64,000 bases of DNA. Origin: Octopus sinensis. Taxonomy: Eukaryota. Location of the stretch: assembly GCF_006345805.1 (NCBI RefSeq), contig NC_043023.1:8804001-8868000 (forward strand). The letters are read 5' to 3'. The notes below the pieces were generated by a model that saw only the letters and a list, made by a program, of their open reading frames with translations, was not told the DNA's origin and searched no databases. Made by a program: the position numbers and the translations under genes. Below, piece after piece: positions 1-41,103 of this stretch (positions within the stretch are counted from its first letter, which is position 1; every line of letters starts with the position of its first letter).

Positions 1-2094
1 TCAACAGAGATTACCCACAAGAACTGGACAAAGAACCGATCTAGATCTGGAAGTAAACCCAGATCATTTCCCCAGGTGGTTAAAAACAATACTAACAAGA
101 AATTGAAAAATAATATAAATAATATACATATAAAAACAAACAGAATACGAAAAGAAAACATAACGAAACCAGGTAAAATACCACAACCAAAACGCAAAAT
201 TCATCAAGCAAACATCAACAGGAATATAAATCATAAACGGGAAAAATTCCATTTTTTACGTCAGGACAACAAACACCGGAGAAAGAAAAATCCAAGAGGA
301 AACATACCCAAACCACTGAACGTATAGATCCTAAAATAATTAATTTTATCAAAAAGAGATCTTGACAATGATGAAATCCAACTTCTGTCAAAAGGACTGA
401 AATTCACACCTACACCAACAGCCAACCACCAAGAATTAAAGGAGGCTATCCAAAATTCTGTCGAAATTACGACTTGTAGAATTCTTCGCTAACAAAAGTA
501 ATGAGATTGATGAATCCCTAGTTAAGGAATAAATCAAATTTCACCCCACCAAAAGGAAGAAATAACTATTTTGACCAATACATTGATATCCTGTCTAAAT
601 TTCCCCTTAGACGCAATACCAATGTTAGGCCAAACATTAACAAATCAGAGTGTCTGCTTGTAAACGTATACAAAACGATCAAACAATAATAATAAAACAA
701 GCAGATAAAGGTGGTGCAATTGTTATTATGGATACCGAATACTATAAGGAATTGGTTGAGGACCAACTGAAGGACACAACTTTCTATTGTGAAATACCCT
801 CAAATATAGACCACCACATCATGAAAAAGATCAACAACCTGATTTCAAACACTACAACTCACTTACCGATAATGAAAGAGACTACATCACCAATTTCGAA
901 CCAAAACCCAGCAACTTCTACGGCTTACCGAAAATACATAAATCAAGATATTAAACAGGCAGTAAAAGAACAAGAAAGTGAGTACATAAAATTACTACAT
1001 CCAAAAGACCTAACACTTAGACCTATCATAGCTGGTCCAGCATGCCCTACCCACCGTCTACAATTTTATTGACATTGTTTTGAAACCACTATGTACTTAC
1101 CCAGTTTTCTCAGGGATGACATCGACTTCCTGTCCCATCTTCCAAAACAACAAAACACATCTTCAGTTTTACTAAGTTTTGATGTGGTAAGCCTCTACAC
1201 CAATATTCCCACGATTTAGGAATAAAGGCGATTAAATACTGGTTAGAAAACATAGAGAAGTGATTCCCAGTAGATTCACAGTGTCATTTTTTAGACACAG
1301 TCAAACTTATTCTAGAAAACAACACGTTCTTCTTCAATGAAAGAATTACATCCAAATTAGAGGCACGGCGATGGGAACGAGGTTTGCTCCCGTTTACGCC
1401 ACTCTGTAATTGGATACTTAGAACAACAACTCTACCAAGAGGTGGAGGTAAACTATGGCACTGGATTTAGAAAGTATATGAAAAGGCATGGAGAGAGATA
1501 CCTTGACGACTGCTGCATAATCTGGACAGAATCTCCTAAATACTCTGGAAGAGTTCAATATCCTCCTGAACAACCTACACCCATCTCTCTAATTTACAAA
1601 GGAGATGAGTAGTACCAAATTACCATTCATAGATATAATGGTAATTAAAAAGGACACCACCATCACCACAGATATATACTATAAACACACAGACACACAT
1701 CAATAACTGAATTTTAAGTCGTGACATCCACCACATACAAAACGTAACATCCCATACTGCCTAGCCAGAAGAATTTGTACCATTGTAGAAGATGCAAATA
1801 TCAGGAACAAACGCCTAACAGAACTAAGAGAATTTTTGCTCAAACAGAAATACCCATCTCTACTTATAGAAAATGGCATACAGCGGGCTATAAAAATACC
1901 CATACAACAACTTAGGACAACCCAGGAAGAGGAAAACAAGAACAAGTCATACCATTCATAGTGCACACAACCCATGTCACCAGAATATCTTCAACATTGC
2001 CAAAGCAAACCTACCAATCATTGCTCAAAGTAATGAATTAAAAGATATAATCACGGATCGAGCTATTGTTCTTAGTAAAAGACAGCCTAAAAAC

Positions 2095-2544
2095 TTGAAA
2101 CAATTACTAACAAAGGCAAAATTTGACCTTAGCAACAAAGACCAAACATTCACTGTATCTAAATGCAATGATAGCCGATGTAGCACATGTCAATTCATAC
2201 ATACCGGCCAATATATAAACACAAAAACCGGGAAAATATTCACAAACGCGAATATGAACTGCAAAAGCAAAAATTTAATTTACTGCATCAAATGCCCAAA
2301 TTGTGAAGAAATATGTGTAGGTCAGACGGGAAATGCACTATCAGAACGTTCACGTGTACACCGACAAAAGATTAGAAACCCAGAGGTCCGTCAGATACCT
2401 TTGAGTAACCACCTAGCAACATGTGGTCGGAAAATATATATAATATTTTCATTCCACAAATTACACAGCCCAAGTGAAATCGAGAGGAAAATCAGAGAAA
2501 AGAATTTTATTGATAAATTCGAACCCAAGCTAAATAAGCAGTAA
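2095..2544 (+). pseudogene. PLE GIY-YIG endonuclease domain (C-terminus of the disrupted ORF)
   Basis: CNDSRCSTC linker, NLIYCIKCPNCEEICVGQTGNALSERSRVH, terminal REKNFIDKFEPKLN. Confidence 0.88.
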
Positions 2545-2850
2545 TAATAATACTTAGAGGTACTACTTCTACTGCTACGACCATGACCACTAACAACAAC
2601 AACAATACTAAAGGTGATCAAGATGAAAGAGCAGGAAAATTACTTATTTAGGGTTAAAAGTTCTATTGCCACCACATCACCACTAGCAACAGTAATTAAG
2701 GTGCTGACAAAGATGATGATGACAATTGAAATATAGAAATCCCTGACAAAGGCTATTTACAACATTTCTAAAAATAGCCCAACAATTGCTGCCTCGGCCA
2801 GGGTTAAGATACAGGACTCTTGACATGTTCAACAAAGCGTGACGCCCTAA

Positions 2851-2963
2851 ACCAATCAGCTCAACCAACCAATCAGCTTAAGTAATTGAGTGATACTACA
2901 CACTGATTGGGCAGAATACAGTTTCAAAACCTAGCAATCTGGAGCCTATACAGCTGTATTTAA
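2851..2963 (+). promoter_or_regulatory. Putative pLTR internal promoter (two CCAAT boxes, TATTTAA)
   Basis: CCAATCAGC twice within 2851-2880 and TATTTAA near 2957, upstream of the hammerhead; function inferred only. Confidence 0.3.
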
Positions 2964-3027
2964 GGCACAGATTTAATCATCTCGTTACAGTCAAAAATTG
3001 TGAAGCATGACTGTCACCACTACTACA

Positions 3028-3072
3028 TGAACCTGAAGATTGCAGAATTTAATGCATGAAAGTACTAGTTCA
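3028..3072 (+). ncRNA. Minimal type I hammerhead ribozyme (PLE pLTR)
   Basis: TGAAC-CTGAAGA-tTGCA(gaatttaa)TGCAt-GAAA-GTAC(palindromic loop)-TA-GTTCA; stem I TGAAC/GTTCA. Confidence 0.8.
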
Positions 3073-3204
3073 ATCAGAATGAACATTTAACATTCTATTA
3101 TTTTATTTTATTATATTATATTATTTTATTTTATTATATCATTATAAGATTGTAAATAAAACGTGAAAATCAGACAAGGTTAGAATCCCTTTTATTAATA
3201 TATA

Positions 3205-6200
3205 TCACTTTGATCAATTTGACTGACCAGTCCGTCAGGCGTCCATTTGACACTGCTGGTCACAGCACGCTGTCTACTCCTCTCTGGATCGCGGATTTCT
3301 CATCCACGTGATCCCAATCGTCCTCCTGAAATCGTAACTCCACCGTCGTGGAGGTCTTCCGGGTGGTCTTTTCCGCTCACGCGGGTACCACTCGGCAACT
3401 GCGTGCGTCCACCGATTATCGGTGAGCCGGGCGACGTGTCCAGCCCATCTATACTTGCTGCGTGTATACTTTGCGATGACATCCCTCACGCAGGACTTCT
3501 TTCTGATGATCTTGCTACTTATGTGCTCTCTCAGCGAGATACCAAGCATTGACCTTTCCATGGCTCTTTCAGCCGTTACCAGTCTTTGCTCTTCTCTCTT
3601 TGTGGTAGCCCATGTTTTCAGTACCATATAACATTGCAGGCAGTACTGCACTGTTAATGAGGTTGGCGCGGGTGTTCTGTCCAACCTTCCCTGAGCACAT
3701 CCCTTATGCCATTGAACGCCTTCCATCCGGCCCTTACTCCCGTGAGATCTCCTTTTTGATATCCCGGCACATATTTAACTCCTGTCCCAGGTAGACATAT
3801 TCTCTCACCTCCTCTATCATCACGCCGATCACCATTCGATCTGTTGGTACATTGTCTGACCGCATGAACTTTGTTTTCATGCGGTTCATCTTGGGACCTA
3901 CTGCAGAACTTTTGATGTCGAGCTCCGTCAGCATGGTCTGAAGCTGATCCATGTTTTCAGCGATGAGTACGAGTTCGTCAGCGAAACGGAGGTGAGTGAG
4001 GAGCTCGCCATTGATGTTGACACCACCTTGCCATTCGATGCCTCTGATGATTCGTTCGAGACATGCAGTGAAAAGTTTTGGGGAGATTGTATCTCCTTGC
4101 TTCACTCCCTTCTCGACCGGCACTCGTATGGGTGATGACAGTAGAGCTATGTCGGTGGTGCATCCGGAATTTGGCTCTCTGAGCAGCTGCACATATTGCG
4201 CTTCGATTCCTTGCCTCTGCAGCGAGTTCAGCACTGCGTTGGTTTCGATGCTATCGAAGGCCTTCTCATAATCTATAAACGCAACGCAAAGAGGCAGCTT
4301 GTACTCATTTGCTCGCTCCAGCAGTTGCGTTAGAGCAAATATATGGTCCATTGTGCTGTTGTTCTTCCGGAAGCCTGCTTGCTCCCTCGGTTGGAGTTCG
4401 TCGAGACGACGTGACAACCTGTTCAGAATTATCTTCGTGAACAGCTTGTACACGTGAGACAGCAAGCATATGGGTCGGTTGTTCTTTAGATCTTCTCTGT
4501 CACCCTTCTTATACAGCAGGATGGTATTTGACTCTTTCCACTGCGAGGGAATTTTTCCCTCGTCTAGATAGTGCGCAAATCGCTCAGCGAGGATTTTCCA
4601 GACCTGCTCTCTGCCTGACTTTAGCTCCTCCGATGTTATACCATCTTTCCCTGGGGCCTTTCCGTTTTTCATCGAGCCGATGGCTCTTTCAACCTCACTG
4701 ACAAAGGTTAGGTGGCACGTTTTCTTCCTGTTGGAGTGGTGGTAACGGCTGGACATTTCTGGTAGACTTAAAGAGCTTGGTGTAGAAGTCTTCACAAACT
4801 TTTTCCATCTCGCTCTTCTGGTTGACCGGTATTCCATCTGTGTTTTTCAGGGCCGTCACCTCTGATCTATATAGTACCATGTCCTCTTGCATTTCTTGAG
4901 GCTCTTCTTTTCTTCTGCGGCCTTCAAGAGCTTCTCCATCCGGTATGCCTCAAAGTCTTTCTTTAGTTGTGACGAATCACTCTGCTGAGATGGAATATTC
5001 AAGGTGATCTTCAATAGTCCTCTTCATATTTTTCCTATTCTCGAGTACTTCGTAGTTTCTTCCGAGATTCTTCCCTTCTTTCTCTTGGGCATACACCCTT
5101 AGCCTTCCTTAACACACTCCTTCAGTTTCCCTATCAGTGAGTTGTAGTCATCGTCTATGTCGTCTCCTTGGCACCAGTCTTCCTGCATGATGGCTTCCTG
5201 CAGCTTTGCCTCGTTGTAGACTCGGACACGTTTTCCCTTCGACGCCAAATATAACGCCATCTTCTCCCTCTTCTCGTCGATGACGACCCTCGCCCTTGCC
5301 AGACGATGATCGCTGCCGGTGTTGAATGGCGTCACGACGGAGACGTCATACAATATGCGTCGCTTATCAACCAGGATGTAGTCGATCTCGCTTCGGTGCT
5401 TAGAGTTCGGCGATATCCAAGTCCATCTCTTCCTCTCTCCCTCTTCCTGAATAGGCTGTTTCCCATGTAGAGCTGTCTCGCCTCTGCCATGGTAGCCAAA
5501 CGTTCTCCTCTCTCGTTTCTCTCTCCCATGCCAAATCTCCCGACGTATTCCTCTCCTTGTCCATGTCCAACCTTTGCGTTGAAGTCTCCCATCACGACAG
5601 TGTAAGTGGACTTCATAGCCAGCCCTTTGTCTAGTTGTCGATAGAATTCTTCCACCTCGTCGTCGTCGCTGGCACTTGTGGGAGCATAGGTCTGGACAAT
5701 CTTGAGGGTGGCCTTCCCTGAGAGGTTCACATTTAGTACACCAATCCGTGATGATATGAAGTGGCAAGAAGCGACCCTCGAAGCCCATTCCTTACTTTCG
5801 ATGAATCCGATACCTCCGATCGATCTAGTACCTTCTGCTCTTCCTAATCTCACAGTGCATCCATCTTGCCATCGTATACTCGCTTCCTTCTTCCAGCGTG
5901 TCTCGCACAGCCCTAACACGTCGCACCTGATCTTCTTCCTCTCCTCTTCTTTCATTCTCCCCTCCATTCAGTTTGCTATTTCTGGCCACCTGCCATAGAC
6001 CTGCATTGTAGGTGCATATGGCAAGTTTAGTCCTGTTCCATGACAGCTTTCGGGAACCTGTGATTCTCAGCAGCCTCGCGTCGCTCGAGTTGCACTCCGC
6101 CGTCATGGAGTGGCCCGATTGACGTGCAGGGTACTGAGGCCCTTTTCCTTTTCTCTTCGTTCTTCGTGCTGTTTTAGCCATAAGATGACGCCATCCCACT

Positions 6201-6420
6201 GGCTGGGTGGGCAGGCCGGTATTTGTTTGGATGGCCGTTGACTCTTCAGAAGTTCATCCGCCCTTTGTTGGGTCTTATTTTTCCATCCCACAGGGAGTCC
6301 AACAGCACCCTCCTCACCAAACGAACCTGGTGGGGTTGTCAGTTTAGTCGCCGACGTCCCGACCATGCAACAGGTTGTACTGGATTACATGTTACCAGTA
6401 GCACTCTAGAGCGACCTGAC
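3205..6420 (-). mobile_element. RTE-clade LINE, near full length (~3.2 kb), frameshifted APE-RT ORF
   Basis: APE motifs CDVLGLCET, YAPTS, VMGDFNAKVG, EIDYIL, SDHRL; RT motifs KAPGKDG, RPICLL, EQAGFR, AFIDYEKAFDS, GVKQGDTISPKLF, HLRFADE, YVYLGQ; RTE C-terminus RWAGHVAR..GRPPRRW; short 3' repeat tail; TA flanks. Confidence 0.95.
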
Positions 6421-6424
6421 ATAA

Positions 6425-6461
<37 letters not shown>

Positions 6462-7867
6462 AAAGGGCTTAGTAAAAAAATTACTTTGCCGCATACTGAA
6501 CTCGTTAGAATAGCAGCTAAAAAACTATTTCTAACACTTAAAGAAAAACCTCTCTCATAGTGTGCTTGCTCAATTCAACCCAAGAAAGTATGAGGGTAGA
6601 GACATTAAAAAATCAATGCAAAGGTTATTGAGTACGTACGTTTCAAGATTAGCTCAATTCGCCCTTCTCTCTCAGCTCAGAATTCGAGTTTGAAAACCAC
6701 TGAAAATGTAGCATCCCTTTCGGGCTTGTTATCGCTTCTGAAGATCTTTCCCACTAACAGTGCTAGCTAACTCAAATATGCAAGAGAAAAATTCTGTTCT
6801 CCCCTTTCCAGCGTGGGTTAAAATCAGCAAACACTATCTTTTTCGTAAAACAACAGACAATATCACTCGATTATCGAATTAAATTTGAGAAATGATCATA
6901 AATCAAGATTGAACTAATGCTAGCTACTCAAAATGCAAGAGAAAAATTTCTGTTCTCCTTTCCACCAGCGTGGGTTAAATCAGCAACACTATCTATTTTT
7001 TTCGGTAAATTCCAAGCAAATAAGTAGAGAGAGATGAATTATAATTTACAATTGAGGGTAAATTAATAATTAATTAATCAATTTCACCATATTCAGTAGC
7101 AAAGGGACCATTTAGGCAAATTCAAATTATTACTTATATAAAAGGGCTTAGTAAAATAACTTTACTTTGCCGCATACTGAACTCGTTAAAATAGCAGCTA
7201 AAAAACTATTTCTAACACTTAAAGAAAACCTCTCTCATATGTGCTTGCTCAATTCAACCCAAAAAGTATGAGGGTAGAGACATTAAAAAATCAAATGCAA
7301 AGGTTATTTGAGTACGTACGTTTCAAGATTAGAGCCAAATTCGACCCTTCTCTCCCTCTCATCAGCTCAGAATGCCTTGTTTGAGTTTGAAAACACTGAA
7401 AATGGGAGCATACCTTTCGGCTTGTTATCGCTTCTGAAGATCTGTTCCCAACTAACAGTGCTAGCTAACTCAAATATGCAAGAGAAAAATTTCTGTTCTC
7501 CCCTTTCACCAGCGTGGGTTAAATCAGCAAAACACTATCTTTTTTTCGGTAAAATCCAAGACAAATAAGTAGAGAGAGATGAATTATAATTTCACAATTG
7601 AGGGTAAAATTAATTAATTAATTAATCAATTTCACCAAGTATTCAGTATGCAAGGGACCATTTAAGGCAAATTCAAATTATTACATTATATAAAAGGGCT
7701 TAGTAAAATAAATTACTTTGCCCGCTACTGAACTCGTTAGAAATAGCAGCTAAAAAACTATTTCTAACACTTAAAGAAACCTCTCTCATAGTGCTTGCTC
7801 AATTCAACTCAAAAGTATGAAGTATAGAGAGGGTAGAGACATTACAAAATCAAATGCAAAGGTTATT

Positions 7868-7920
7868 TGAGTACGTACGTTTCAAGATTAGCCAAATTCG
7901 ACCCTTCTCTCATCAGCTCA
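7868..7920 (-). ncRNA. Type I hammerhead ribozyme, array left arm (intact copy; variant copies at ~6630-6680 and 7309-7369)
   Basis: Reverse complement TGAG-CTGATGA-GAGA..TCTT-GAAA-CGTACG-TA-CTCA. Confidence 0.85.
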
Positions 7921-10900
7921 GAATGCCCTTGTTTGAGTTTGAAAACACTGAAAATGGGAGCATACCCTTCGGCTTGTTATCGCTTCTGAAGATCTGTTCC
8001 CAACTAACAGTGCTAGCTAACTCAAATATGCAAGAGAAAATTCTGTTCTCCCCCTTTCCACCAGCGTGGTTAAAATCAGCAAACACTATCTTTTTTCGGT
8101 AAAATCCAAGACAAATAAGTAGAGAGAGATGAATTATAATTCAACAATTGAGGGTAAAATTAATTAATTAATTAATCAATTTCACCAAGTATTCAGTATG
8201 CAAAGGGACCATTTAAGGCAAATTCAAATTATTACATTATATAAAAGGGCTTAGTAAATAAATTACTTTGCCGCATACTGAACTCGTTAGAAATAGCAGC
8301 TAAAAAAAACTATTTCTAACACTTAAAGAAAACCTCTCTCATATAGTGCTTGCTCAATTCAACCCAAGAAAGTATGAGGGTAGAGACATTAAAAAATCAA
8401 ATGCAAAGGTTATTTGAGTACGTACGTTTCAAGATTAGCCAAATTCGCGGCAAAGATTAGCCAAGTATGCGGCAAAGTAATTTATTTTACTAAGCCCTTT
8501 TATATAATGTAATAATTTGAATTTGCCTTAAATGGTCCCTTTGCATACTGAATACTTGGTGAAATTGATTAATTAATTAATTAATTTTACCCTCAATTGT
8601 TGAAATTATAATTCATCTCTCTCTACTTATTTGTCTTGGATTTACCGAAAAAAGATAGTGTTTGCTGATTTTAACCCACGCTGGTGGAAAGGGGAGAACA
8701 GAAATTTTTCTCTTGCATATTTGAGTTAGCTAGCACTGTTAGTTGGGACAGATCTTCAGAAGCGATAACAAGCCGAAAGGGTATGCTCCCATTTTCAGTG
8801 TTTTCAAACTCAAACAAGGGCATTCTGAGCTGATGAGAGAAGGGTCGAATTTGGCTAATCTTGAAACTACGTACTCAAATAACCTTTGCATTTGATTTTT
8901 TAATGTCTCTACCCTCATACTTTCTTGGGTTGAATTGAGCAAGCACTATATGAGAGAGTTTTCTTTAAGTGTTAGAAATAGTTTTTTTAGCTGCTATTTC
9001 TAACGAGTTCAGTATGCGGCAAAGTAATTTATTTTACTAAGCCCTTTTTATAATGTAATAATTTGAATTTGCCTAAATGGTCCCTTTGCATACTGAATAC
9101 TTGGTGAAATTGATTAATTAAATTAATTAATTTACCCTCAATTGTTGAAATTATAATTCATCTCTCTCTACTTATTTGTTTGGATTTACCGAAAAAAAAT
9201 AGTTGTTTTGCTGATTTTAACCCACGCTGGTGGAAAGGGGAGAACAAATTTTTTCCTTGCATATTTGAGTTAGCTAGCACTGTTAGTTGGGAACAGATCT
9301 TCAGAAGCGATAACAAGCCGAAAGGGTATGCTCCCATTTTCAGTGTTTTCAAACTCAAACAAGGGCATTCTGAGCTGATGAGAGAAGGGTCGAATTTGGC
9401 TAATCTTGAAAACGTACGTACTCAAATAACCTTTGCATTTGATTTTTTAATGTCTCTACCCTCATACTTTCTTGGGTTGAATTGAGCAAGCACTATATGA
9501 GAGAGGTTTTCTTTAAGTGTTAGAAATAGTTTTTTTTAGCTGCTATTTCTAACGAGTTCAGTATGCGGCAAAGTATTTATTTTACTAAGCCCTTTTATAT
9601 AATGTAATAATTTGAATTTGCCTTAAATGGTCCCTTTGCATACTGAATACTTGGTGAAATTGATTAATTATTAATTAATTTTACCCTCAATTGTTGAAAT
9701 TATAATTCATCTCTCTCTACTTATTTGTCTTGGATTTTACCGAAAAAAAGATAGTGTTTGCTGATTTAACCACGCTGGTGGAAAGGGGAGAACAGAAATT
9801 TTTCTCTTGCATATTTGAGTTAGCTAGCCTGTTAGTTGGGAACATTCTTCAGAGCCGATAACAAGCCGAAAGGGTATTCCTCCCATTTTTCAGTGTTTTC
9901 AAACTCAAACAAGGGCATTCTGAGCTGATGAGAGAAGGGTCGAATTTTGCTAATCTTGAAACGTACGTACTCAAATAACCTTTGCATTTGATTTTTTAAT
10001 GTCTCTACCCTCATACTTTCTTGGGTTGAATTGAGCAAGCACTATATGAGAGAGGTTTTCTTTAAGTGTTAGAAATAGTTTTTTTAGCTGCTATTTTCTA
10101 ACGAGTTCAGTATGCGGCAAAGTAATTTATTTACTAAGCCCTTTTATATAATGTAATAATTTGAATTTGCCTTAAATGGTCCCTTTGCATACTGAATACT
10201 TGGTGAAATTGATTAATTAATTAATTAATTTACCCTCAATTGTTTGAAATTATAATTCATCTCTCTCTACTTTTTGTCTTGGATTTTACCGAAAAAAAGA
10301 TAGTGTTTGCTGATTTTAACCCCGCTGGTGGAAAGGGGAGAACAGAAATTTTTCTCTTGCATATTTGAGTTAGCTAGCACTGTTAGTTGGGAACAGATCT
10401 TCAGAAGCGATAACAAGCCGAAAGGGTATGCTCCCATTTTCAGTGTTTTCAAACTCAAACAAGGGCATTCTGAGCTGATGAGAGAAGGGTCGAATTTGGC
10501 TAATCTTGAACGTACGTACTCAAATAACCTTGCATTGATTTTTTAATGTCTCTACCCTCATACTTTCTTCCTTGGGTTGAATTGAGCAAGCACTATATGA
10601 GAGAGGTTTTCTTTAAGTGTTAGAAATAGTTTTTTTAGCTGCTATTTCTAACGAGTTTCAGTATGCGGCAAAGTAATTTATTTTACTAAGCCCTTTTATA
10701 AATGTAATAATTTGAATTTGCCTTAAATGGTCCCTTGCATACTGAATACTTGGTGAAATTGATTAATTAATTAATTAATTTTACCCTCAATTGTTGAAAT
10801 TATAATTCATCTCTCTCTACTTATTTGTCTTGGATTTTTACCGAAAAAAAGATAGTGTTTTGCTGATTTTAACCCACGCTGGTGGAAAGGGGAGAACAGA

Positions 10901-11570
10901 ATTTTTTCTCTTGCATATTTGAGTTAGCTAGCACTGTTAGTTGGAACAGATCTTCAGAAGCGATAACAAGCCGAAAGGTATGCTCCCATTTTCAGTGTTT
11001 TCAAACTCAAACAAGGGCATTCTGACTGATGAGAGAAGGGTCGAATTTGGCTAATCTTGAAACGTACGTACTCAAATAACCTTTGCATTTGATTTTTAAA
11101 TGTCTCTACCCTCATACTTTCTTGGTTGAATTGAGCAAGCACTATATGAGAGAGGTTTTCTTTAGTGTTAGAAATAGTTTTTTTAGCTGCTATTTCTAAC
11201 GAGTTCAGTATGCGGCAAAGTAATTTATTTTACTAAGCCCTTTTATATAATGTAATAATTTGAATTTGCCTTAAATGGTCCCTTTGCATACTGAATACTT
11301 GGTGAAATTGATTAATTAATTAATTAATTTAACCCTCAATTGTTGAATTATAATTCATCTCTCTCTACTTATTTGTCTTGGATTTTACCGAAAAAAAGAT
11401 AGTGTTTGCTGATTTTAACCCACGCTGGTGGAAAGGGGAGAACAGAAATTTTTCTCTTGCATATTTGAGTTAGCTAGCACTGTTAGTTGGGAACAGATCT
11501 TCAGAAGCGATAACAAGCCGAAAGGGTATGCTCCCATTTTCAGTGTTTTCAAACTCAAACAAGGGCATTC

Positions 11571-11623
11571 TGAGCTGATGAGAGAAGGGTCGAATTTGGC
11601 TAATCTTGAAACGTACGTACTCA
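11571..11623 (+). ncRNA. Type I hammerhead ribozyme, array right arm (representative; other cores start at 8830, 9375, 9925, 10475, 11026)
   Basis: TGAG-CTGATGA-GAGAagggtcgaatttggctaaTCTT-GAAA-CGTACG-TA-CTCA; palindromic stem III ACGTACGT. Confidence 0.87.
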
Positions 11624-11893
11624 ATAACCTTTGCATTTGATTTTTTAATGTCTCTACCCTCATACTTTCTTGGGTTGAATGGAGCAAGCACTATATGAGA
11701 GAGGTTTTCTTTAAGTGTTAGAAATAGTTTTTTTAGCTGCTATTTCTAACGAGTTCAGTATGCGGCAAAGTAATTTATTTTACTAGCCCTTTATCTAATG
11801 TAATAATTTGAATTTGCCTTAAATGGTCCCTTTGCATACTGAATACTTGGTGAAATTGATTAATTAATTAATTAATTTTACCCTCAATTGTTG

Positions 11894-11931
<38 letters not shown>

Positions 11932-12117
11932 GTCTCTCTGTATATCTGGTTACCGATCAGATTATCTAATATTTTATCTGTTCTCTCTCTTTTTTCCCCT
12001 TTTTGTATCTCTATGTATTTGGTTCTTACGTCTTCATAGATGGTCTAATTAGCGTAGTATATCTAAATTTAGTGAGTTTTGATAATGCAGCATTAATTAA
12101 TATTTCGTTTAGAAGCC

Positions 12118-12545
12118 AGTGTGTGGTCGTGTGGTAAGAAGTTTGCTTCCCAGCCACATGGTGTCGAGTTCAGTCCCACGGCAGTTTTGGGGACAACTCT
12201 CTTCTATAGCCCCCAGCCGACCAAAGCCTTCGGAGCAGATTTGGTAGACGGAAGCCGAAACAAACTAAGTGCATGTGTGAGTGTGTGTGTGTGTGTGTAT
12301 GTGGTTTGTGTGTGTGTCTGTGTGGTGTTGTATGTATTCTGTGCGCGTGCTTATGTGTTTCTGCCCTGGCCAGAGCTTGAGAATTGGGTGTTGTGTGTTA
12401 TGGCCCCATAAATTTGGGTTTGGCAAACATAAAGTGTTAGAAGTGCCAGTCTTAATGAAATTTGTTTATGCGGTCGATTCGTTCCTTGAAATGTCTTTAT
12501 GCATGCCCACACATGGCCCAGTCTGATGACTGAATCCAGTCAACG
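12118..12545 (+). mobile_element. Degenerate tRNA-derived SINE (family A)
   Basis: tRNA-like head GTGTGGTAAG..GAGTTCAGTCCCAC and GGTAGACGGAA body, matching better copies elsewhere. Confidence 0.7.
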
Positions 12546-12789
12546 ATCAAAGATATGATAGGAAAATGCAAAAATAACTTGGCTATTCAGGAGAATAAAC
12601 ATTGTAAGACAGGTTCATATTATATCTAAATTATTAGTTTTATAGTTATAGATAAACTGAATTTCCGAAAAGTTTAGTAAGAAAGCACTTTATTCAGAGA
12701 ATTTGAATATTACATTGAAAAAGAAGGCAATATGAAAGTTCAACTAGAAAATATGGAAAGATTTTAAATTGCGATAAGATTTTCAAAAG

Positions 12790-13540
12790 TCAGGTACGTA
12801 GCCTCGTTTAAAATTACATCATTGCAGATTATAATCTCATCGTTGCATAGCGTTGTATTAATAGGCAAAAATAAAGCTACTTTAGATGGAAGTATGTTTG
12901 GATATAATATTAGAAGAAAATTTAGTGTTTTGAAGCAAAACTATGATCAAAGGTGAATCGTGAACCGACAGACACACACATTATAGAATATCCGATAAAG
13001 TAAAAACGTAAATATGAATTGGTAGCTAGAATATATTTACTGCCGTTGAAATGCGGCATGTTTTTCAGGTTTTCTGCGTTTCAGCCAGAGTTATGCACTT
13101 AGATTTGTTTAAAATTACATTATTACGGATTATACAGTATTTTAGCTGACGGTATTGTATTATCAATAAAGGTTAAATGTATAAATATTGAAAATTGTTT
13201 AATGTAATATAAGAAGTAATTTAGTTTTTTGAAGAAAATTATGAACAAAGGAGACTCTTTGCATAGTTATAGATTATATTATATATATTGTATATTATAT
13301 TATATTCTAGTGTTATATGGTATATTATAATTATATTGAGATGTAAAATAGTATATGAAATTGGCAGCAAAAATTTTAGTTACTGCCTTTGAAATCAAGC
13401 AAGTTCTTCAGTTTTTCTGCATAGTCATACAAGTAAGCATGTTGAAAATTATATTATTGCGGATTATACAGTCTCTTAATTACATAGTGTTGTATTGAGA
13501 GGTAAAATAAAGCTAAGTTAAATGGAGAAATGCTTATAAG
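12790..13540. repeat. Degenerate ~300-330 bp tandem triplication in the putative GPCR 3' UTR
   Basis: AAAATTACAT(C/T)ATT(G/A)C(A/G)GATTATA-like blocks start at ~12808, ~13109 and ~13444, with shared downstream segments. Confidence 0.65.
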
Positions 13541-13545
13541 AACAT

Positions 13546-13655
13546 TTAGAATTTTGACGCTTCCGCAAATATAATCTTGAAGATATTTTCTTGATTTTCA
13601 TTTATAAGTCCGTTTTGCTGCTGTTTTATTTCTTTTTCCTTACTGATGCTTGGAC
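13546..13655 (-). CDS. Adhesion GPCR, probable terminal coding exon (cytoplasmic tail)
   Basis: Acceptor tttctAG; phase 1 fits the donor at 18049; reads (S)PSISKEKEIKQQQNGLINENQENIFKIIFAEASKF-TAA. Confidence 0.6.
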
Positions 13656-14009
13656 CTAGAAACATAATGAGAACAATTATATAAAATATTATTGATTTTT
13701 AAACACAAATAATTCTTGGCATTAAAATTTAAAAATAGCAACAATTGTCATCAACTGGTTTTCAAGACATCACAACACAAATGAAAATATTACTACATAA
13801 GAAGGAAGTATAGCAACGCAATTATATACAAAACCATGTTACACAAACTAGCTGTAAGTCATTGATTATCGGGGATATATTGTAAGATATTAGCAAATGC
13901 GGTTCAAGAATATTTTCCAGAGCAACTGGACACTTTATATAAAATGATGAACTATTTAGTTCCATGTCAGTCAAAGGTTTGCACGGTTTGTATATATTGT
14001 ACGTGGGTC

Positions 14010-14600
14010 TATAACGTACGTCGCCCCTTTTTAGCCTAACCAGGCTCAGGACCCCGTTTTTCCAGTTTTCTGTGGCGTATGTGTTCCCCCTTGCTGGGAC
14101 GGACGCCAGTCCATCGCAGCGTTCTCAAGAAACAGGAAGAAAGAGCGAAAGAAAGTTGGGGCGAAAGAGTACAACAGGGGTCACCACCATCACCTGCCGG
14201 GCCTCGTGACCTTTTAGGTGTTTCGTTCAATAAAGTGAGAGAAAGTTGTGGCGGCGAAAGAGTACAATAGGGGTCACCACCATCCCCTGCCGGTCCTCAT
14301 GGAGCTCTTTAGGCGTTTCGTTCATAAGAGTGAGAGAAGTTGTGGCGAAAGAGTACAATAGGGGTCACCACCATCCCCTGCCGGGTCCTCATGGAGCTTT
14401 TAGGTGTTTTCGTTCAATAAGAGTGAGAGAAAGTTGGGGCGAAAGAGTACAACAGGGTCACCACCATCCCCTGCCGGGTCCTCATGGAGCTTTAGATATT
14501 TTCGTTCAATAACACACACAACGCCCGGTCTGGGAATCGCCCGGTCTGGGAATCGAAACTGCGATCTTCAGATCCTAACCACTGGGCCATTGCGCCTCCG
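14010..14600 (-). mobile_element. tRNA-derived SINE (family C) with internal ~90-bp unit repeated about 4 times
   Basis: Head GGAGGCGCAATGGCCCAGTGGTTAG on minus at ~14600; GGCGAAAGAGTACAA..GGGGTCACCACCATC repeated at 14150-14510. Confidence 0.8.
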
Positions 14601-15051
14601 TACGTGGGTCTATAGCTTTATGTATATTTATGCATTATTTGTGGTTTAATTTTCTACATTGCTAAATGAATATCTATCTGGCATATGTGTGTGTATATAT
14701 ATATATGGATATGTACGATATATTTCACATATGCCAGAAAAGCTACGAATTGTATTTCTGATCAGTTATCTTAAGAGCAGACGTGTTCTGGTGGGCGCCT
14801 TGGTGCCAGTCCCTTTGGAAGCTGTACTGTTTACTACAAGACGTTCACTGATCATAAAATAAATTTATTTGCCTTTAAAATCATGCAGTTTGATTCGTCA
14901 CCTCCCCATCTCATTTCGAAGATTCCTATTTCATTGTTTGTTTATAAATATCTCTCTTTTCGTACATTGATTCTATTTTACCCGATGGCTGGATATCATC
15001 CGAGATAAAGGATCGAATTCACGACAATGTAGATATCCTTCCTTTTCCTTC

Positions 15052-15365
15052 TACTTGTTTCAGCCATTTGACTGCGGCCATGCTGGAGCACCGCCTTTAA
15101 TCGAGCAACTCGACCCCGGGACTTATTCTTTTGTAAGCCCAGTACTTATTCTACCGTCCCTTTTGCCGAACCGCTAAGTGACACACCATCATCGGTTGTC
15201 AAGCAATACTAGGGGGATAAACACAGACACACCTACATACACGCACACACACACATATATTTCCGTCTACCAAATCCACTCACAAGGCTTTGGTCGGCCC
15301 GAGGCTATAGCAGAAGACACTTGCCTAAGGTGCCACGCAGTGGGATTGAACCCGGAACCATGCGC
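15052..15365 (-). mobile_element. SINE family A (internally deleted)
   Basis: GACTGCGGCCATGCTGGAGCACCGCC tail, CCAAATCCACTCACAAGGC body. Confidence 0.85.
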
Positions 15366-15511
15366 CTATATATATATATATATTATATTGAGAGTACTAC
15401 TATTCGTAGATACCATACGCTAAGAGGGACCAATGCGGTCAAAACTACTAAAATAAACAAAATTTTACCGAATGCAAAACTTCAAAGCAAATCATTTAAA
15501 AAAAGAATTTA

Positions 15512-15575
15512 GTTACATATCACCTGTGATTTCGCAATTAATGCAGGATATGCATTCCATGTTCATCAGTGCAAC
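15512..15575 (-). ncRNA. Type I hammerhead ribozyme (inverted arm; sense to GPCR pre-mRNA)
   Basis: GTTGCA-CTGATGA-stem II-GAAA-TCA(cagg)TGA-TA-TGTAAC; A.C mismatch at the base of stem II. Confidence 0.72.
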
Positions 15576-15808
15576 AAACTCAAGATATATAAGAAAAAAC
15601 ATAACGTTACAAGCTCGATAGCCAACCGCAGAATTCGTCGTAGCATGTACGAATGTTTATCTTTACATATCAATGAAAATGGCGGGCTTATTCGCAATGG
15701 CGGGCTTATTCGGTAACAAATTGCTTACTCGGAATAAAATTCAGTATTGAACTATTCCGTTGGCTATCGAGCTTGTAACGTTATGTTTTTCTTATATATC
15801 TTGAGTTT

Positions 15809-15872
15809 GTTGCACTGATGAACATGGAATGCATATTCTGCATTAATTGCGAAATCACAGGTGATATGTAAC
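15809..15872 (+). ncRNA. Type I hammerhead ribozyme
   Basis: GTTGCA-CTGATGA(15815)-AATGCA/TGCATT hairpin-GAAA(15851)-TCAcaggTGA-TA-TGTAAC. Confidence 0.72.
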
Positions 15873-16115
15873 TAAATTCTTTTTTTAAATGATTTGCTTT
15901 GAAGTTTTGCATTCGGTAAAATTTTGTTTATTTAGTAGTTTGACCGCATTGGTCCCTCTTAGCGTATGGTATCTACGAATAGTAGTACCCTCAATATAAT
16001 ATAAATAAATATTTCAAAGTGGAAAAATTTACGGATTTCTTCTCTTACGAGGTTTTTTACGCTAACTACTGATAATTTCTTTTAAAGATTTTATCCTCAA
16101 TTGTTAATATATATA

Positions 16116-16146
<31 letters not shown>

Positions 16147-16965
16147 ATATATATATATTAATATATATAAACATTATACGACGGGCTTCTTTCAGTTTCT
16201 GTCTACCAAATCCACTCACACCTATGTGAGAGTTTACATAATGTAACATATAATACACATTATATTAGAGAGAAATAACATGCTATTGAAACACGTATAG
16301 TGATGTTTTAGGATATCTGTTCTTAATGTTTACTACGCACGTACCACACACGCACAGGCACACACACGTGAGCACACTCACATACATGCATACACCAAAC
16401 ACACACACGAAATAACTTGTTTTTTACCTTTTATTAAATTTTTGATACTTTTTGATAGTTATATATTTAATATAATATATTTTATTAAAAATAAATAAAA
16501 ATAAAAATAAATAAATAAAAAATAAACAATGTAAATAAATATATAATTAAATAAATAAAAAATAAAATAAAAAATAAAAAATAATAATAAATATTTATAT
16601 ATATATATATACATAAATATATAAATTTATAAGTAAAATTAATAATTTTTAAAAAATTAATCTTTAGCTTTAAATTTAAATAATTTAAATTTGAATTTTA
16701 TATTTTATATATTTGTATATTATATTAATTAATTTTATTCTGTTTTGGTTTATGTTTTTCACTGTTTGATTTGCCTAATAGTGGTTTTATCTCTAATTTA
16801 ATATATATATATTTATACTGTAAAATTAGATTTAATACTAAATCTAATTTTTCGCGGTAAGTTTGGATTTGCTCCCCAATATTATACACACATATATATA
16901 ATATATATATATATAATATCTGCTGTGTATGTATGTATGTACACGTATGTATGTATATGTATATG

Positions 16966-17022
<57 letters not shown>

Positions 17023-17028
17023 CATACA

Positions 17029-17073
<45 letters not shown>

Positions 17074-17082
17074 GTATATATA

Positions 17083-17125
<43 letters not shown>

Positions 17126-17169
17126 TATTATATATATATAATATATATATATTATATACATATGTTGAG

Positions 17170-17390
17170 AACGATGAGGATGACAGCGAAATTGATGTTT
17201 ATGATGAAGAGTTGTAACGTTGGTAGTGAAGCAGTTTTGAGAAATGAAGATTATGATTATTTCCCTCATGACAGAATTGGTTTTGTTGGTGGAAGGAATA
17301 AGAGACGCAAAATCACACTTACTTTTTATATCCTTCATAGCTTGCTTCATATCTACTTTGTTTCGTTTACATGAGTACGGGTAGATGACG
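17170..17390 (-). pseudogene. Diverged duplicate of the 3' end of the GPCR TM5-7 exon plus its donor site
   Basis: [35 protein letters not shown] vs CKRKTWELWEDPKNIKSKCNLVSLIARVTKTNIVM (~17925-18118); same A|GTAAGTG donor; no acceptor found. Confidence 0.75.
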
Positions 17391-17393
17391 CAC

Positions 17394-17424
<31 letters not shown>

Positions 17425-17453
17425 TACACACACACACACCCATAATATATATA

Positions 17454-17820
17454 CTAGCAGTATCGCCGGCGTTGCTCAGGTTTGTAAGGGAAATAACTAT
17501 AAGCATTTTTAGAGAGTTTTAGCCAAAAAATAGCAAAAAAATGAAAAAAAATGATGGTAATTTTTTTTGAGAGTTAAAAAAGGGGAGTGAGTCCCCTAGA
17601 CGGTCTGTGGTTTGGGTTTCTGATTCTCGACCCCATGTCGAATTTATCGATTTTTTTCAGAACTGGGGGACTTTTTAAATTTTCGCTGCGTTATTTTGAA
17701 TTATGACATTGGGCTATGTGGTGTCAAGTTTCATCAGATCGGTGTTGAAAGCCGTGGTCAGAGTGAGGGTACGAGAAAACAGACACAAGAAAAGCACAGA
17801 CAAACTGCCGTTTATATAGA
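17454..17820 (-). mobile_element. Non-autonomous Helitron-like element
   Basis: Minus-strand 5' TCTATATAAAC and 3' CTAG|T preceded by an imperfect GC hairpin (TCGCCGGCGTTGCTCAGG on plus). Confidence 0.6.
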
Positions 17821-17883: not shown

Positions 17884-18049
17884 GTAGTGAGGATATATAC
17901 TTGTATATATGATGATGATGATGATATGATGATGACAGTGGTGTTGAATTTATGACGAAGTCTATCCTAAAAGTGATGATATGATTGTAACATCATGACA
18001 ATATTGGTTTTTGTGACTCTAGCAATTAAAGAGACCAAATTACACTTAC

Positions 18050-18441
18050 TTTTTATATTCTTCGGATCTTCCCACAGCTCCCATGTTTTTCGTTTACATA
18101 CGAACAGGCAAATGACGTCTCTGGTATCTTTTTTGTATATACAGTAGCATAGGAAGATAAACATTCCTTGAAGGGGAGTGAATATAGCAAAAAGAAGGTG
18201 AAACACTTCAGCTGCTTCACCAAAACCAAAGAACGGTAAGAGCCAGGGAAATCCAAGCAGGAAACACAATCCAACGATGCCAAAAACACGTACTTTTTTT
18301 GGTTTGTGTTCAAATTTCTTGTCATTTTGCATTGAGTTAAGACTCCTCATAACGAGAGAAAACATAGTAATGTTGAAGAGGAGGATGAGCGCCACGGGAG
18401 CCAGGAGGGCAGCATAGAAAGCCGTGCTGGATAACCAACAG
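18050..18441 (-). CDS. Adhesion GPCR exon, ECL2-TM5-TM7 (read-through of the donor would stop at 17967)
   Basis: CWLS..FYAALLAPVALILLFNITMF..GLCFLLGFPWLLPFF..LFAIFTPLQGMFIFLCYCI (class B2 7TM motifs); AG at 18443-18442, GTAAGT at 18049. Confidence 0.93.
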
Positions 18442-19131
18442 CTACAAAGAAATAGAAAATCAATCATTAATCTCTGTGTGGAGTAGAGGTATGGGCTGGG
18501 GATTTTAAGTTACGTCTCCGCCCCTGTTTGCGCTTTCCTTCATCGGAATTACTAAAAAAACTGGGAATTATCCCATTTTGTTTTCCGTTGGAGTAGACAT
18601 CTGCGAATACGTCTGGCGTATATATATAAAACTTGTTTGGTAGACCAGCCCCAAAAGACGATTTATGCGTCTTACAGTCGCTCAATGTTTCTGGTATCTC
18701 GACTGCCGTTATCAGCTTTTCGCAGCATTCTGCATCAGCCGCCGAAGGCCGCAGTAGCCCAACAAGATAGGAACTAAAGTTCACTGCCGCTTTCGATTTT
18801 ACTGAACAATCGCCCGAAGTGCCGTTGCGAAGTTGCTCACATCTGCCTTGATGTACATGTTTTGTTTTATTTTTGTATATTACTTTCATCCATATTTTTT
18901 AAGCTATGTCCTAATAGATATTTAGTCTTAGTGAATTGAAAGGCGGAGCAGATGAGAAGACAGACATCAAAAAGAAAGAAAGCAAAAACAGTATCAGTGT
19001 GTAGCTACTAGGGATCAGATCCTTGGCTTCATCTGATGGTAGCTTCTTCATTATTCAACGCATAAATAAATCGAGTAATATTAGTTGTGAAAACCGGAGA
19101 AAATTAGGGCAATAAACACATAAATACTTAC

Positions 19132-31159: not shown

Positions 31160-32330
31160 CAGGGGTAGGACAACATAATGGAAACACCTTGCATCATAGC
31201 ATCATAATTTTGAAATGTCTATAAAACCGTTAAAAGCTGGTTTATTTTATGTTTTTGGTTTATTATTAGTGATGCTGAATATGTTTAGCTAAATTGCTGT
31301 TTCTATTCAGTATCATTGGGTAATTATTCATTTGACAGATATGTTTCAAAGATATTAAATTGCTGGTGCTCGTATGGCAGCAGTGTAACGAAACCAGCCG
31401 AAATGTTTGGTGTATCATAAAGTACTCCCTAATGACAGCCTTTCTTTGAGAAATAGAGAGAAAAGCCTCCTTATCGAAACAAAACTCGAGAAGAAAACAA
31501 AGCTTTCAGATAGGGACCGTCGAACTCTTACGCGAATTTTTAGAAACGTTCACAAAAGTACAGCTCCCAAAATTGCGGCAGATTTTGATGACCAACTGGT
31601 CCCAGCTCAAGAGCCCGATTTCATTGGAAGGTTGAAGTCAGAAGACAAACGTTGCAAACGTTTAGAGTGGAGTAAAACCCCACAGAATCGGTCCCTAGAG
31701 CAGTGGGGGAAATTTATTTTCAAGGACGTGTCGTCCTTTACCCTTTTTCCGATCACTGGCCGAGTATACATGTGGAGACAACCTAAAGAAGCATTTGACC
31801 CAGACTGGCTTCTTCCAACTGTTAAAGATGGAGGAGCATCTAGGATGATCCGGAGGGCTATAACTTGGAAATACGCCGACCCGATGGTTTCCCTCATGGC
31901 AAAATTAATAATCAAGTCTATTTAAGTTTTTATCTGATCAAATTCATCCTTTGGTTGCGGAACTGCTTCCGGAGGGATACGCAATCTTTCGGGATGATAA
32001 TGCACCAATTCACACAACTAAAGTTATTACTGAATGGCACGAGGAACATTCTAGTGAAGTTGAACATCTTAATCTGGCCACCACAGTCCCCAGATCTCAA
32101 TATTATTGAACATTTATTGTGCATTTTAGAAAAACAAGTAAGGAGTCGATATCCTCTACCCTCATCACTACAAGAATGGAGACTTTTAGCTGAAGAATGG
32201 ACAAAACATTCCTTTCGAAACAATTCATACTTTGTACGAGTCCATTCCTCGTAGAATTCAAGCTGTAATTACTGCCAAAGGCGGTCATTAAACTAAATTT
32301 CTTTGAAATTTTAAGATGATTCCATTATTC
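31160..32330 (+). mobile_element. Tc1-family DNA transposon, degenerate
   Basis: LSDRDRR, DVSSF (DESxF), PTVKDGG, FRDDNAPIH, WPPQSPDLNIIEHL, SIPRRIQAVITAKGG; TIR remnants ATAATGGAAACACCTT / AAGATGATTCCATTAT. Confidence 0.9.
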
Positions 32331-40512: not shown

Positions 40513-41103
40513 TATGTTTGACTTTTGCTTTATATTTGTACAAGTTGGCTCCAAGTCTCACCCAGAGACCTCAAGAGACAACAGGGTTGGAAGTTCATGT
40601 TGTTGTTATGCCTAGTGTGCCATATATTTGGGGGGTGGGGATGTTGTACTAATGAATGTCTAAAAAAAAGTTTTTTTTTTTTTTTTAACCGAAGATTATG
40701 TTTGTTTTAAACCTTGAGATTACATAGAGAGTATTTTGCGTAGGATATGAGCAGTTACCCTGAGCACTATCTTTTGAACTTCTGCCATTTTTGGGTTTCC
40801 TGGTATCTGAGTTAGGTAACTATCAGCCCCTTTTGCTATCATTCCCAGGGCACCTATGACAACAGGTATTGTTTTAGTCTTCAGCTTCCACATTTTGCTG
40901 ATTTCTATTTCAAGATCTTTATATTTGCTCAGTTTTTGGTAGGTCTTGACAGATACGTTTATATCGATTGGGACAGTCATATCAATGAGGAGGCATGTTC
41001 TTTGTTTGAAGTCTTTCAATATGATGTCTGGCCTATTTGCATCTATCTTCCTGTCAGTTTGAATGGTGAAGTTCCAGAGGAGTGAGATGTGGTCATTTTC
41101 AAA

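What the first reader, a model, noticed from the sequence alone, without database searches (positions are those of the whole stretch)
6452..11900. Retrozyme-like array: ~10 tandem ~550-bp non-coding monomers, each with a dimer-type hammerhead ribozyme
Seen: every monomer carries TGAG-CTGATGA-stem II-GAAA-CGTACG-TA-CTCA (six cores on plus; three plus one truncated on minus), has no ORF, and holds further helices (GTTAGAAATAG/CTATTTCTAAC, TTCAGTATGC/GCATACTGAA, TTTGAGTT/AACTCAAA). Known: type I hammerheads with palindromic stem III cleave as dimers in Penelope pLTRs and in animal non-LTR retrozymes, whose tandem transcripts yield monomers and circular RNAs. Inference: a PLE-mobilised, viroid-like ~550-nt circRNA element, longer than the ~170-400-nt animal retrozymes I know of. 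It may have been integrated as a concatemer by rolling-circle reverse transcription. I do not know of a description in cephalopods.
Basis: partly seen in the sequence, partly recalled or inferred. Interest (0 to 1): 0.9.

Follow-up and report, generated by a model that had tools for sequence, protein, structure and literature searches.

The report
Ribozyme retroelement inserted as inverted concatemers
This is one copy of an abundant non-coding, self-cleaving-RNA retroelement (a retrozyme) in an animal genome, and its insertion ends and internal uniformity suggest that Penelope-type transposon enzymes copied a single RNA circle round and round from both strands of the target DNA.

Summary
The array is real, but it is two arms joined head to head: about 3.6 units on minus (6452-8447) and 6.2 on plus (8464-11901), each fused to (TA)n. 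It belongs to a dispersed superfamily of 550-600-nt non-coding units (6,384 exact motif matches genome-wide). Each unit carries a type I hammerhead whose stem I covaries and whose palindromic stem III favours the dimer fold. New evidence bears on mechanism. Arms end at two fixed sites about 100 nt apart, one per arm: 26 of 30 two-armed insertions in a positional sample. This is the Penelope-like element (PLE) inverted-copy-plus-tail signature, with an unusually long tail. Units within an array share one haplotype across both arms (0.55 differences within arrays, 5.8 between), as rolling-circle reverse transcription of one monomer predicts. Not shown: cleavage, circular RNA, or the partner PLE. 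The stem II closing pair is non-canonical, and 550 nt lies inside the published 51-972-bp range. Verdict: a new variant of animal non-LTR retrozymes that gives junction-level support to a so far hypothesised mechanism.

The parts
6428..6457 (.). (AT)n microsatellite, left half of the target
6452..8447 (-). Minus arm, about 3.6 units; its RNA-3' end at about 6452-6458 is fixed site B (consensus 448-455), fused to (AT)n; its 5' end is at consensus 241
6844..6911 (.). Garbled stretch between a partial repeat of consensus 22-138; consensus error or a template jump, unresolved
6633..6675 (-). Hammerhead core with a one-base deletion in CUGAUGA as assembled
   Evidence: sequence
7313..7365 (-). Hammerhead core, motif intact, extra bases in stem II
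7872..7916 (-). Intact hammerhead core
8419..8447 (-). 3' half of a hammerhead at the truncated 5' end of the minus arm
8448..8463 (.). 16-nt filler at the head-to-head joint, made of short copies of both arm ends
8464..11901 (+). Plus arm, about 6.2 units; starts at consensus 408 and ends at fixed site A (consensus 554), fused to (TA)n
8830..8873 (+). Hammerhead core (one-base deletion in stem III as assembled)
9375..9420 (+). Hammerhead core (one extra A as assembled)
9925..9969 (+). Intact hammerhead core; predicted cleavage after 9969 (GUA triplet)
9970..10518 (+). One predicted cleavage-to-cleavage monomer, the putative circle
   Evidence: inference
10475..10518 (+). Hammerhead core (one A missing as assembled)
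11026..11070 (+). Hammerhead core (stem I G missing as assembled)
11575..11619 (+). Intact hammerhead core
11722..11901 (+). Conserved 3' domain of the last unit (hairpins and a three-way junction) that holds sites B and A; the most conserved part across sister families
11902..11927 (.). (TA)n microsatellite, right half of the target

Best explanation
A young insertion of a non-autonomous, PLE-mobilised non-LTR retrozyme. Shown: dispersed high-copy families, a conserved hammerhead and fold, (TA)n targets, two fixed 3' ends used one per arm, and one haplotype per array. Inferred: a multimeric transcript folds into a double hammerhead through the palindromic stem III and cuts out monomers, which are ligated into circles of about 552 nt. 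A PLE protein binds the conserved 3' domain and cuts both strands of a (TA)n tract. One nick primes at site A and the other at site B, about 100 nt upstream; both sites are single-stranded AU segments. Each reverse transcriptase runs round the circle for a variable number of turns. The two cDNA ends are then joined by microhomology or a short filler, which gives two divergent concatemer arms.
For: Ends: positional sample of 39 regions on C1: of 30 two-armed insertions, 26 A/B, 1 A/A, 1 B/B and 2 with one off-site end. P=2.6e-4 for at most 1 A/A in 27 if ends were chosen independently with equal odds and every B/B were missed. The best-hit sets add 43 A/B and no A/A or B/B. 184 of 187 3' ends abut (TA)4, against 274 of 4,545 random windows. 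An autonomous PLE family of this genome shows the same B/A two-armed layout in 2 of 2 fully visible cases (L102, L108). Published PLE hallmarks are an inverted 5'-truncated copy, a tail at one end and microsatellite bias (PMC8557442), and a PLE protein cuts and extends both strands from two internal start sites (PMC11167929). Monomer template: among 111 full units, mean differences are 0.55 within and 5.80 between arrays (lowest of 200 permutations 4.79), and 0.51 for the same arm against 0.62 for the opposite arm. Site-by-array cells: 56 fixed, 1 mixed, 26 low, 541 absent. Both arms share the non-consensus alleles in 10 of 10 informative loci (read by eye). Within 21 arrays (145 units) there are 126 singleton and 12 shared variants. 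The ligation junction is read through cleanly: 114 of 129 exact, no insertion at the scissile bond. RNA structure: circular fold z = -7.3, -6.0, -6.0 for three families (25 shuffles each). 96.8% of cells are paired in 14 diverse units against 37-48% when slid, and 9 pairs change on both sides. N7 and N17 vary as hammerheads allow, and the palindrome survives a 2-nt insertion.
Against: No cleavage, circle or transcript was observed. No autonomous PLE sharing the 3' domain was found among the families examined. The 10.1-11.1 pair is G-C in only 4 of 14 units, G.U in 2 (including this window's family) and unpaired in 8, whereas PMC4209133 calls G10.1-C11.1 highly conserved. Only 1 of 9 Xenopus retrozyme dimers cleaved in vitro, and a PLE hammerhead was dispensable for insertion in vitro. 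In vitro, the two start sites were not strand-specific. Some units do arise locally: L131 units 4 and 5 share 4 variants, and 6 of 21 arrays have at least one shared variant. Two assemblies of one locus (L040, L045) differ by one unit. Private alleles are private only among 24 sampled loci out of thousands. Many singletons may be sequencing errors. The covariation rests on two main lineages: pairs with a two-sided change were reached by 61 of 500 shuffles and further pair types by 495 of 500. One locus (L167) joins two families, so two templates can serve one site.
Confidence: 0.62

Rival explanations
1. PLE-mobilised, but copied from a linear multimeric transcript of an already homogeneous source array. 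The hammerhead and circle are incidental or only occasionally used.
For: PLE protein used uncleaved RNA in vitro, and hammerhead mutants inserted normally (PMC11167929). Several loci share a haplotype (six carry 48G/245C). The stem II closing pair is weak.
Against: About 14 distinct haplotypes are each fixed across whole arrays among 24 loci, so a monomer bottleneck recurs. Position-specific variants inherited in order between loci were not seen. The hammerhead core and palindrome are conserved across families only 70-76% alike.
Confidence: 0.2
2. A PLE inserts short arms of one to two units, and each arm then expands in place by unequal crossover or slippage (the local-amplification scenario of Li et al.).
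For: Adjacent units share variants in L131, L028, L121 and L127. L040 and L045 differ by one unit. Li et al. propose this.
Against: 15 of 21 arrays have no shared sub-array variant, and singletons outnumber shared variants 126 to 12. No arm-specific fixed allele was seen, and same-arm and opposite-arm distances are alike. Autonomous PLE arms here reach about 3.6 kb, so the enzyme is processive enough.
Confidence: 0.13
3. Assembly or library artefact (fold-back reads, inflated copy number), or a plain satellite with a chance hammerhead.
For: The left arm is error-rich with a garbled stretch. Raw reads of this assembly were not examined.
Against: The two arms end at different fixed sites in different unique flanks at dozens of loci. 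Twice-assembled loci agree, down to two single-unit variants (L040/L045). A contig of another public run (X9) shows the B end running into (TA)n. The covariation and conserved core argue against a chance motif.
Confidence: 0.05

Closest known systems
Animal non-LTR retrozymes (Cervera and de la Pena 2020, PMC7229834; Li, Clavereau and Pollet preprint 10.64898/2026.07.22.740005)
   Same: Non-coding, low-GC (34%) tandem units, each with a type I hammerhead; dispersed dimers to multimers; highly paired predicted circle; size inside the 51-972-bp range; PLEs in the same genome.
   Different: In the parts read, neither paper describes two-armed inverted insertions, fixed ends, a tail, (TA)n targeting or array-fixed haplotypes. 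Stem II is long with a non-canonical closing pair. In the predicted circle the core is mispaired rather than free. No shared-sequence PLE partner was found here, unlike 24 of 57 Xenopus families that matched known elements.
EN+ Penelope-like elements: pLTR, inverted 5'-truncated copy and tail (Craig et al. 2021, PMC8557442; Frangieh et al. 2024, PMC11167929)
   Same: Inverted 5'-truncated arm, tail at one end only, (TA)n or AT-rich targets, internal start sites, hammerhead upstream of the start sites.
   Different: No ORF; the tail is about 100 nt instead of 30-40; both arms can be multi-unit concatemers; A and B are used almost strictly one per arm, whereas no strand difference was seen in vitro.
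Non-autonomous Chlamys elements such as MRC1 (PMC8557442, section 10)
   Same: Non-autonomous PLE passengers with multicopy head-to-tail insertions.
   Different: [quoted passage not shown]
Newt/axolotl satellite 2 double hammerhead (PMC7229834, PMC4209133)
   Same: Short palindromic stem III that is predicted to work only as a dimer.
   Different: Those units are about 330-350 nt with canonical stems, and their cleavage and circles are shown experimentally; here they are only predicted.

Membership tests
Animal non-LTR retrozyme | Tandem non-coding units, each with a type I hammerhead motif | tested here: met
Animal non-LTR retrozyme | No LTR/PBS/PPT, no ORF, GC below 45-50% | tested here: met
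   GC 34%; longest sense ATG ORF 16 aa; ends are A/B sites at (TA)n, not LTRs. PBS and PPT were not searched separately.
Animal non-LTR retrozyme | Dispersed multicopy family, monomers to multimers | tested here: met
Animal non-LTR retrozyme | Self-cleavage of the transcript | not testable with these tools
   folding only
Animal non-LTR retrozyme | Accumulates as a monomeric circular RNA | tested here: inconclusive
   only contigs of runs guessed to be RNA were available; they cannot show strand, ends or circles
Type I hammerhead ribozyme | Core CUGANGA / GAAA / UH with three stems | tested here: met
   N7 varies (U, C, A), H17 is A, U or C and never G, stem I 100% paired with two-sided changes; one of 14 units has U4C
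Type I hammerhead ribozyme | G10.1-C11.1 closing pair of stem II | tested here: not met
   G.U in this window's family; G-C 4, G.U 2, unpaired 8 of 14 units
Type I hammerhead ribozyme | Loop 1-loop 2 tertiary contact of canonical motifs | not tested
   stem I continues into the rod; no loop-loop analysis was made
Type I hammerhead ribozyme | Match to an Rfam hammerhead model | tested here: not met
Dimer-type (double) hammerhead | Palindromic stem III; dimer fold favoured over monomer fold | tested here: met
   duplex -9.8 kcal/mol, no stable hairpin; dimer 4.9/0.0/8.3 against monomer 15.1/8.3/15.9 kcal/mol above the minimum
PLE-type integration product | Inverted 5'-truncated copy next to the main copy | tested here: met
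   30 of 41 complete insertions in the positional sample are two-armed
PLE-type integration product | Tail present at one end only (two start sites) | tested here: met
   26 of 30 A/B; tail about 100 nt, longer than the published 30-40 bp
PLE-type integration product | Microsatellite or AT-rich target | tested here: met
   184 of 187 3' ends
PLE-type integration product | Sequence shared with the pLTR of an autonomous PLE in the same genome | tested here: inconclusive
   none in 25 PLE loci, 30 GIY-YIG loci (two hits were separate insertions) or one Hydra-like 3' end; only 150 of 5,029-17,494 candidates were scored per search
Autonomous PLE | RT plus GIY-YIG ORF | tested here: not met

The most novel reading that the evidence does not exclude
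A dimeric PLE protein captures one ribozyme-made RNA circle through a conserved 3' domain that presents two programmed priming sites about 100 nt apart, one for each strand of the cut (TA)n target. Both reverse transcriptases then roll round the same circle, so every insertion is a clonal pair of divergent concatemers. This would be genomic evidence for rolling-circle, double-primed retrotransposition in animals and a general account of the tandem/inverted/tail architecture of PLEs.
Probability: 0.4. Interest if true: 0.8.

Novelty: new variant of a known kind. Interest (0 to 1): 0.6.

Why it matters
How animal retrozymes move, and how PLEs make their tandem and inverted structures, are both described as unresolved in the papers read (PMC7229834 Discussion, PMC8557442, the Li et al. 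preprint). This superfamily offers thousands of young insertions in which the priming sites, the target, the joint and the template haplotype can all be read. It supports the circle-template model against local satellite growth, and it defines an RNA domain of about 180 nt that can be tested directly in the existing PLE in vitro system. It is also a large, ribozyme-bearing repeat class that Rfam misses in this genome.

Tried and rejected
Rfam: nothing at gathering threshold, three chance hits at E<=10. Partner search led nowhere: the PLE family at window 1-3200 has an unrelated pLTR. Among 30 GIY-YIG loci, the two retrozyme-like hits (L194, L201) are separate insertions next to the PLE. A Neptune-like (L023) and a Hydra-like (L086) 3' end differ as well (clade names are my recalled labels, not tested). 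None of 40 positional regions had an attached PLE ORF. A search with the L201 variant gave only short matches. No loci were obtained for the Hydra-like family search. Expression: no RNA holder listed; contigs of runs guessed to be RNA cover parts of the unit but cannot show transcription, strand or circles. Classical L1-type twin priming on one linear RNA was considered: A-arm starts are spread over the whole unit rather than lying just downstream of B, so it was not adopted. Template jumping on linear monomers was disfavoured because the ligation junction is clean. One rod helix that I first specified was mis-registered and was dropped before counting pairs; the last part crashed. Host taxon: the Atlas look-up gave only 'adhesion/secretin-family GPCR, eukaryote'. 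Earlier-findings look-ups by place and by sequence were empty.
Full report
OBSERVATION. The stretch 6452-11901 holds about 9.8 units of 550-554 bp. It is two arms joined 5' to 5': a minus arm of 1,997 bp and a plus arm of 3,438 bp, with a 16-nt filler built from copies of both arm ends. Both outer ends run into (TA)n. Four of the nine full cores match the motif exactly, and five carry a one-base indel of the kind that pervades this assembly's repeats (637 indel events in 84,934 bp). The unit has no meaningful ORF. Rfam does not recognise it.

A DISPERSED SUPERFAMILY. A search of the own genome (G000, 2.72 Gb) gave 196 matches from 26 of 1,739 candidates scored, the full-length ones 93-97% identical, on many contigs. 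Flanks of those loci revealed sister families of about 567 and 586 nt, and a positional sample showed further subfamilies 80-99% identical to the three consensuses. A shared 21-base motif has 6,384 exact matches (3,192 per strand as reported), and its reversed control has none. The first 100 matches fall in about 52 loci over 36.7 Mb, which extrapolates roughly to 3,000-4,000 loci (my estimate). Contigs of a run labelled organism D match pieces of the unit closely (151 bases with one substitution and one gap), so close relatives exist in at least one other organism.

THE RIBOZYME. Across 14 units chosen for diversity, the core is kept while N7 varies and the cleavage triplet is GUA, GUU or GUC (AUC in one unit with a changed stem III), never GUG. 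Stem I is 100% paired with two-sided changes. Over 52 named pairs, 96.8% of cells pair against 37-48% for slid controls. Cells paired and the covariation score exceed all 500 shuffles, but pair-level counts do not (61 and 495 of 500), and the signal rests on two main lineages. Stem III is a palindrome that stays palindromic after a 2-nt insertion in one family. In two-unit constructs the double-hammerhead fold lies 4.9, 0.0 and 8.3 kcal/mol above the minimum, against 15.1, 8.3 and 15.9 for two single hammerheads. Folded as circles, the three consensuses score z = -7.3, -6.0 and -6.0 against 25 shuffles and share one layout: a rod with the hammerhead at its tip and a 3' domain of hairpins. That 3' domain is the most conserved part (82-87% against 66-72% elsewhere; 79% for the window holding the hammerhead's 3' half). 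Against activity: the 10.1-11.1 pair is G.U here and unpaired in 8 of 14 units, although PMC4209133 reports G-C as highly conserved (passages), and only 1 of 9 Xenopus dimers cleaved.

INSERTION ARCHITECTURE. Arms end at two fixed places, A (consensus 554) and B (448-461), both single-stranded AU segments in the predicted fold. In the positional sample (40 regions on C1, one duplicate dropped) the script found 41 complete insertions and one cut by an edge. Thirty are two-armed: 26 A/B, 1 A/A, 1 B/B and 2 with one off-site end. Ten are single-armed (7 A, 3 B), and one is irregular. The motif used lies between B and A, so short B/B cases would be missed; even dropping B/B, at most 1 A/A in 27 has P = 2.6e-4 under independent, equally likely choice. 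The three best-hit sets (24, 26 and 21 loci after dropping 2, 4 and 9 duplicate or overlapping loci) add 43 A/B, no A/A or B/B, 2 with an off-site end, 27 single-armed, 1 irregular and 5 cut; a few neighbouring insertions are counted in two sets. In all, 184 of 187 3' ends abut (TA)4, against 6% of random windows. The head-to-head joints show 0-10 nt of overlap or short fillers. An autonomous PLE family of this genome (RT plus GIY-YIG) shows the same B/A layout with a shorter tail in 2 of 2 fully visible cases. Craig et al. describe an inverted 5'-truncated copy, a 30-40-bp tail at one end and (TA)n bias as PLE hallmarks (passages and section 10). Frangieh et al. show that a PLE protein cuts and extends both strands and starts at two internal sites that define the tail, with no strand difference, and that the hammerhead is dispensable in vitro (main text, parts 1-2 of 4). 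I put PLE-type integration at about 0.9.

TEMPLATE. In 184 aligned units from 26 loci, 32 variants occur in three or more units. Per site and array they are fixed (56 cells), absent (541), low (26; 14 of these are one artefact at the B junction) or mixed (1). Among 111 full units (two duplicate loci dropped), pairs differ at 0.55 sites within arrays and 5.80 between (200 permutations, lowest 4.79); same-arm 0.51, opposite-arm 0.62. By eye there are about 14 haplotypes in 24 loci, six loci carry alleles seen nowhere else in the sample, and both arms agree in 10 of 10 informative loci. Within 21 arrays there are 126 singletons and 12 shared variants, and 15 arrays have none shared. Two singletons recur in both assemblies of one locus, so units are resolved rather than homogenised. 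The ligation junction is copied without insertions (114 of 129 exact). This is what copying one monomer circle predicts. Limits: the sample is small, many singletons may be errors, some adjacent units clearly arose by local duplication (L131), two assemblies of one locus differ by a unit, and L167 joins two families.

WHAT WAS NOT SHOWN. The partner PLE was not found, and those searches scored a small part of the candidates. Expression data were uninformative.

COMPARISON AND NOVELTY. Cervera and de la Pena 2014 and 2020 already proposed circles as templates for more-than-unit cDNA, and PLEs as candidate mobilisers (passages; passages and Discussion; supplements not read, including the model figure). 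Li et al. link retrozymes to pLTRs by phylogeny, report 51-972 bp, include a local-amplification scenario, and in the text contain no 'tail' or 'junction' and no inverted-insertion analysis (parts 1-3 of 5 and a term search; supplements closed). Paper searches found no description of a cephalopod retrozyme or of these ends and haplotypes. A giant squid genome paper lists 235 Rfam hammerhead hits without analysis (passage), a 2020 review names coral, mussel and axolotl examples (passages), and Lunse et al. 2017 was seen only as a reference title. The library lacks most subscription papers, and repeat databases were not searchable. The element is therefore a new variant of a known kind. Its value lies in the junction and haplotype evidence. 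Interest 0.6; the most novel reading (one circle, two programmed priming sites, both strands) has probability 0.4 and interest 0.8.

Noticed in passing
window 1-3200 (+): Decayed copy of an abundant young PLE family (RT plus C-terminal GIY-YIG; open frames of 775-777 codons elsewhere, e.g. L102), with its own minimal hammerhead-like motif near 3032-3075 and an inverted arm just upstream of the window (L051).
   Followed up: partly
window 3274-6420 (-): LINE remnant with AP endonuclease (5335-5967) and RT (3737-4846) directly left of the (AT)n target.
   Followed up: partly
window 17970-18509 (-): Exon of a secretin/adhesion-family GPCR (PF00002), about 6 kb from the array; whether the array lies in its transcript is unknown.
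   Followed up: partly
L167:2628-8678: Chimeric insertion: the plus arm switches from one retrozyme family to another after about 9 units, and both ends are type B; this suggests template switching between two circles.
   Followed up: partly
L026:2554-4921: The B arm has internal jumps (consensus 143 to 339 and 95 to 321), which suggests RT shortcuts across the base of the predicted rod.
   Followed up: no
L186, L198, L201, L204, L205 (3' ends): A second autonomous PLE family, also ending at (TA)n with or without a short tail, carries a degenerate hammerhead-like motif with a palindromic stem III.
   Followed up: partly
L086:832-1160: A PLE of another clade (Hydra-like by recall) has a hammerhead-like motif with a long stem II and a palindromic stem III.
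   Followed up: no
L201:2600-2870: A fourth, more distant retrozyme-like family, with 1,925 first-look candidates in the genome.
   Followed up: partly
L030/L031, L040/L045, L126/L127, L172/L174: The same loci are assembled twice (haplotigs or duplicated segments), so raw genome counts are somewhat inflated.
   Followed up: yes
window 31389-32254 (+) and 40720-41103 (-): Fragments that look like a Tc1/mariner transposase and a LINE C-terminus by recall; no Pfam hit at E<=0.001.
   Followed up: partly
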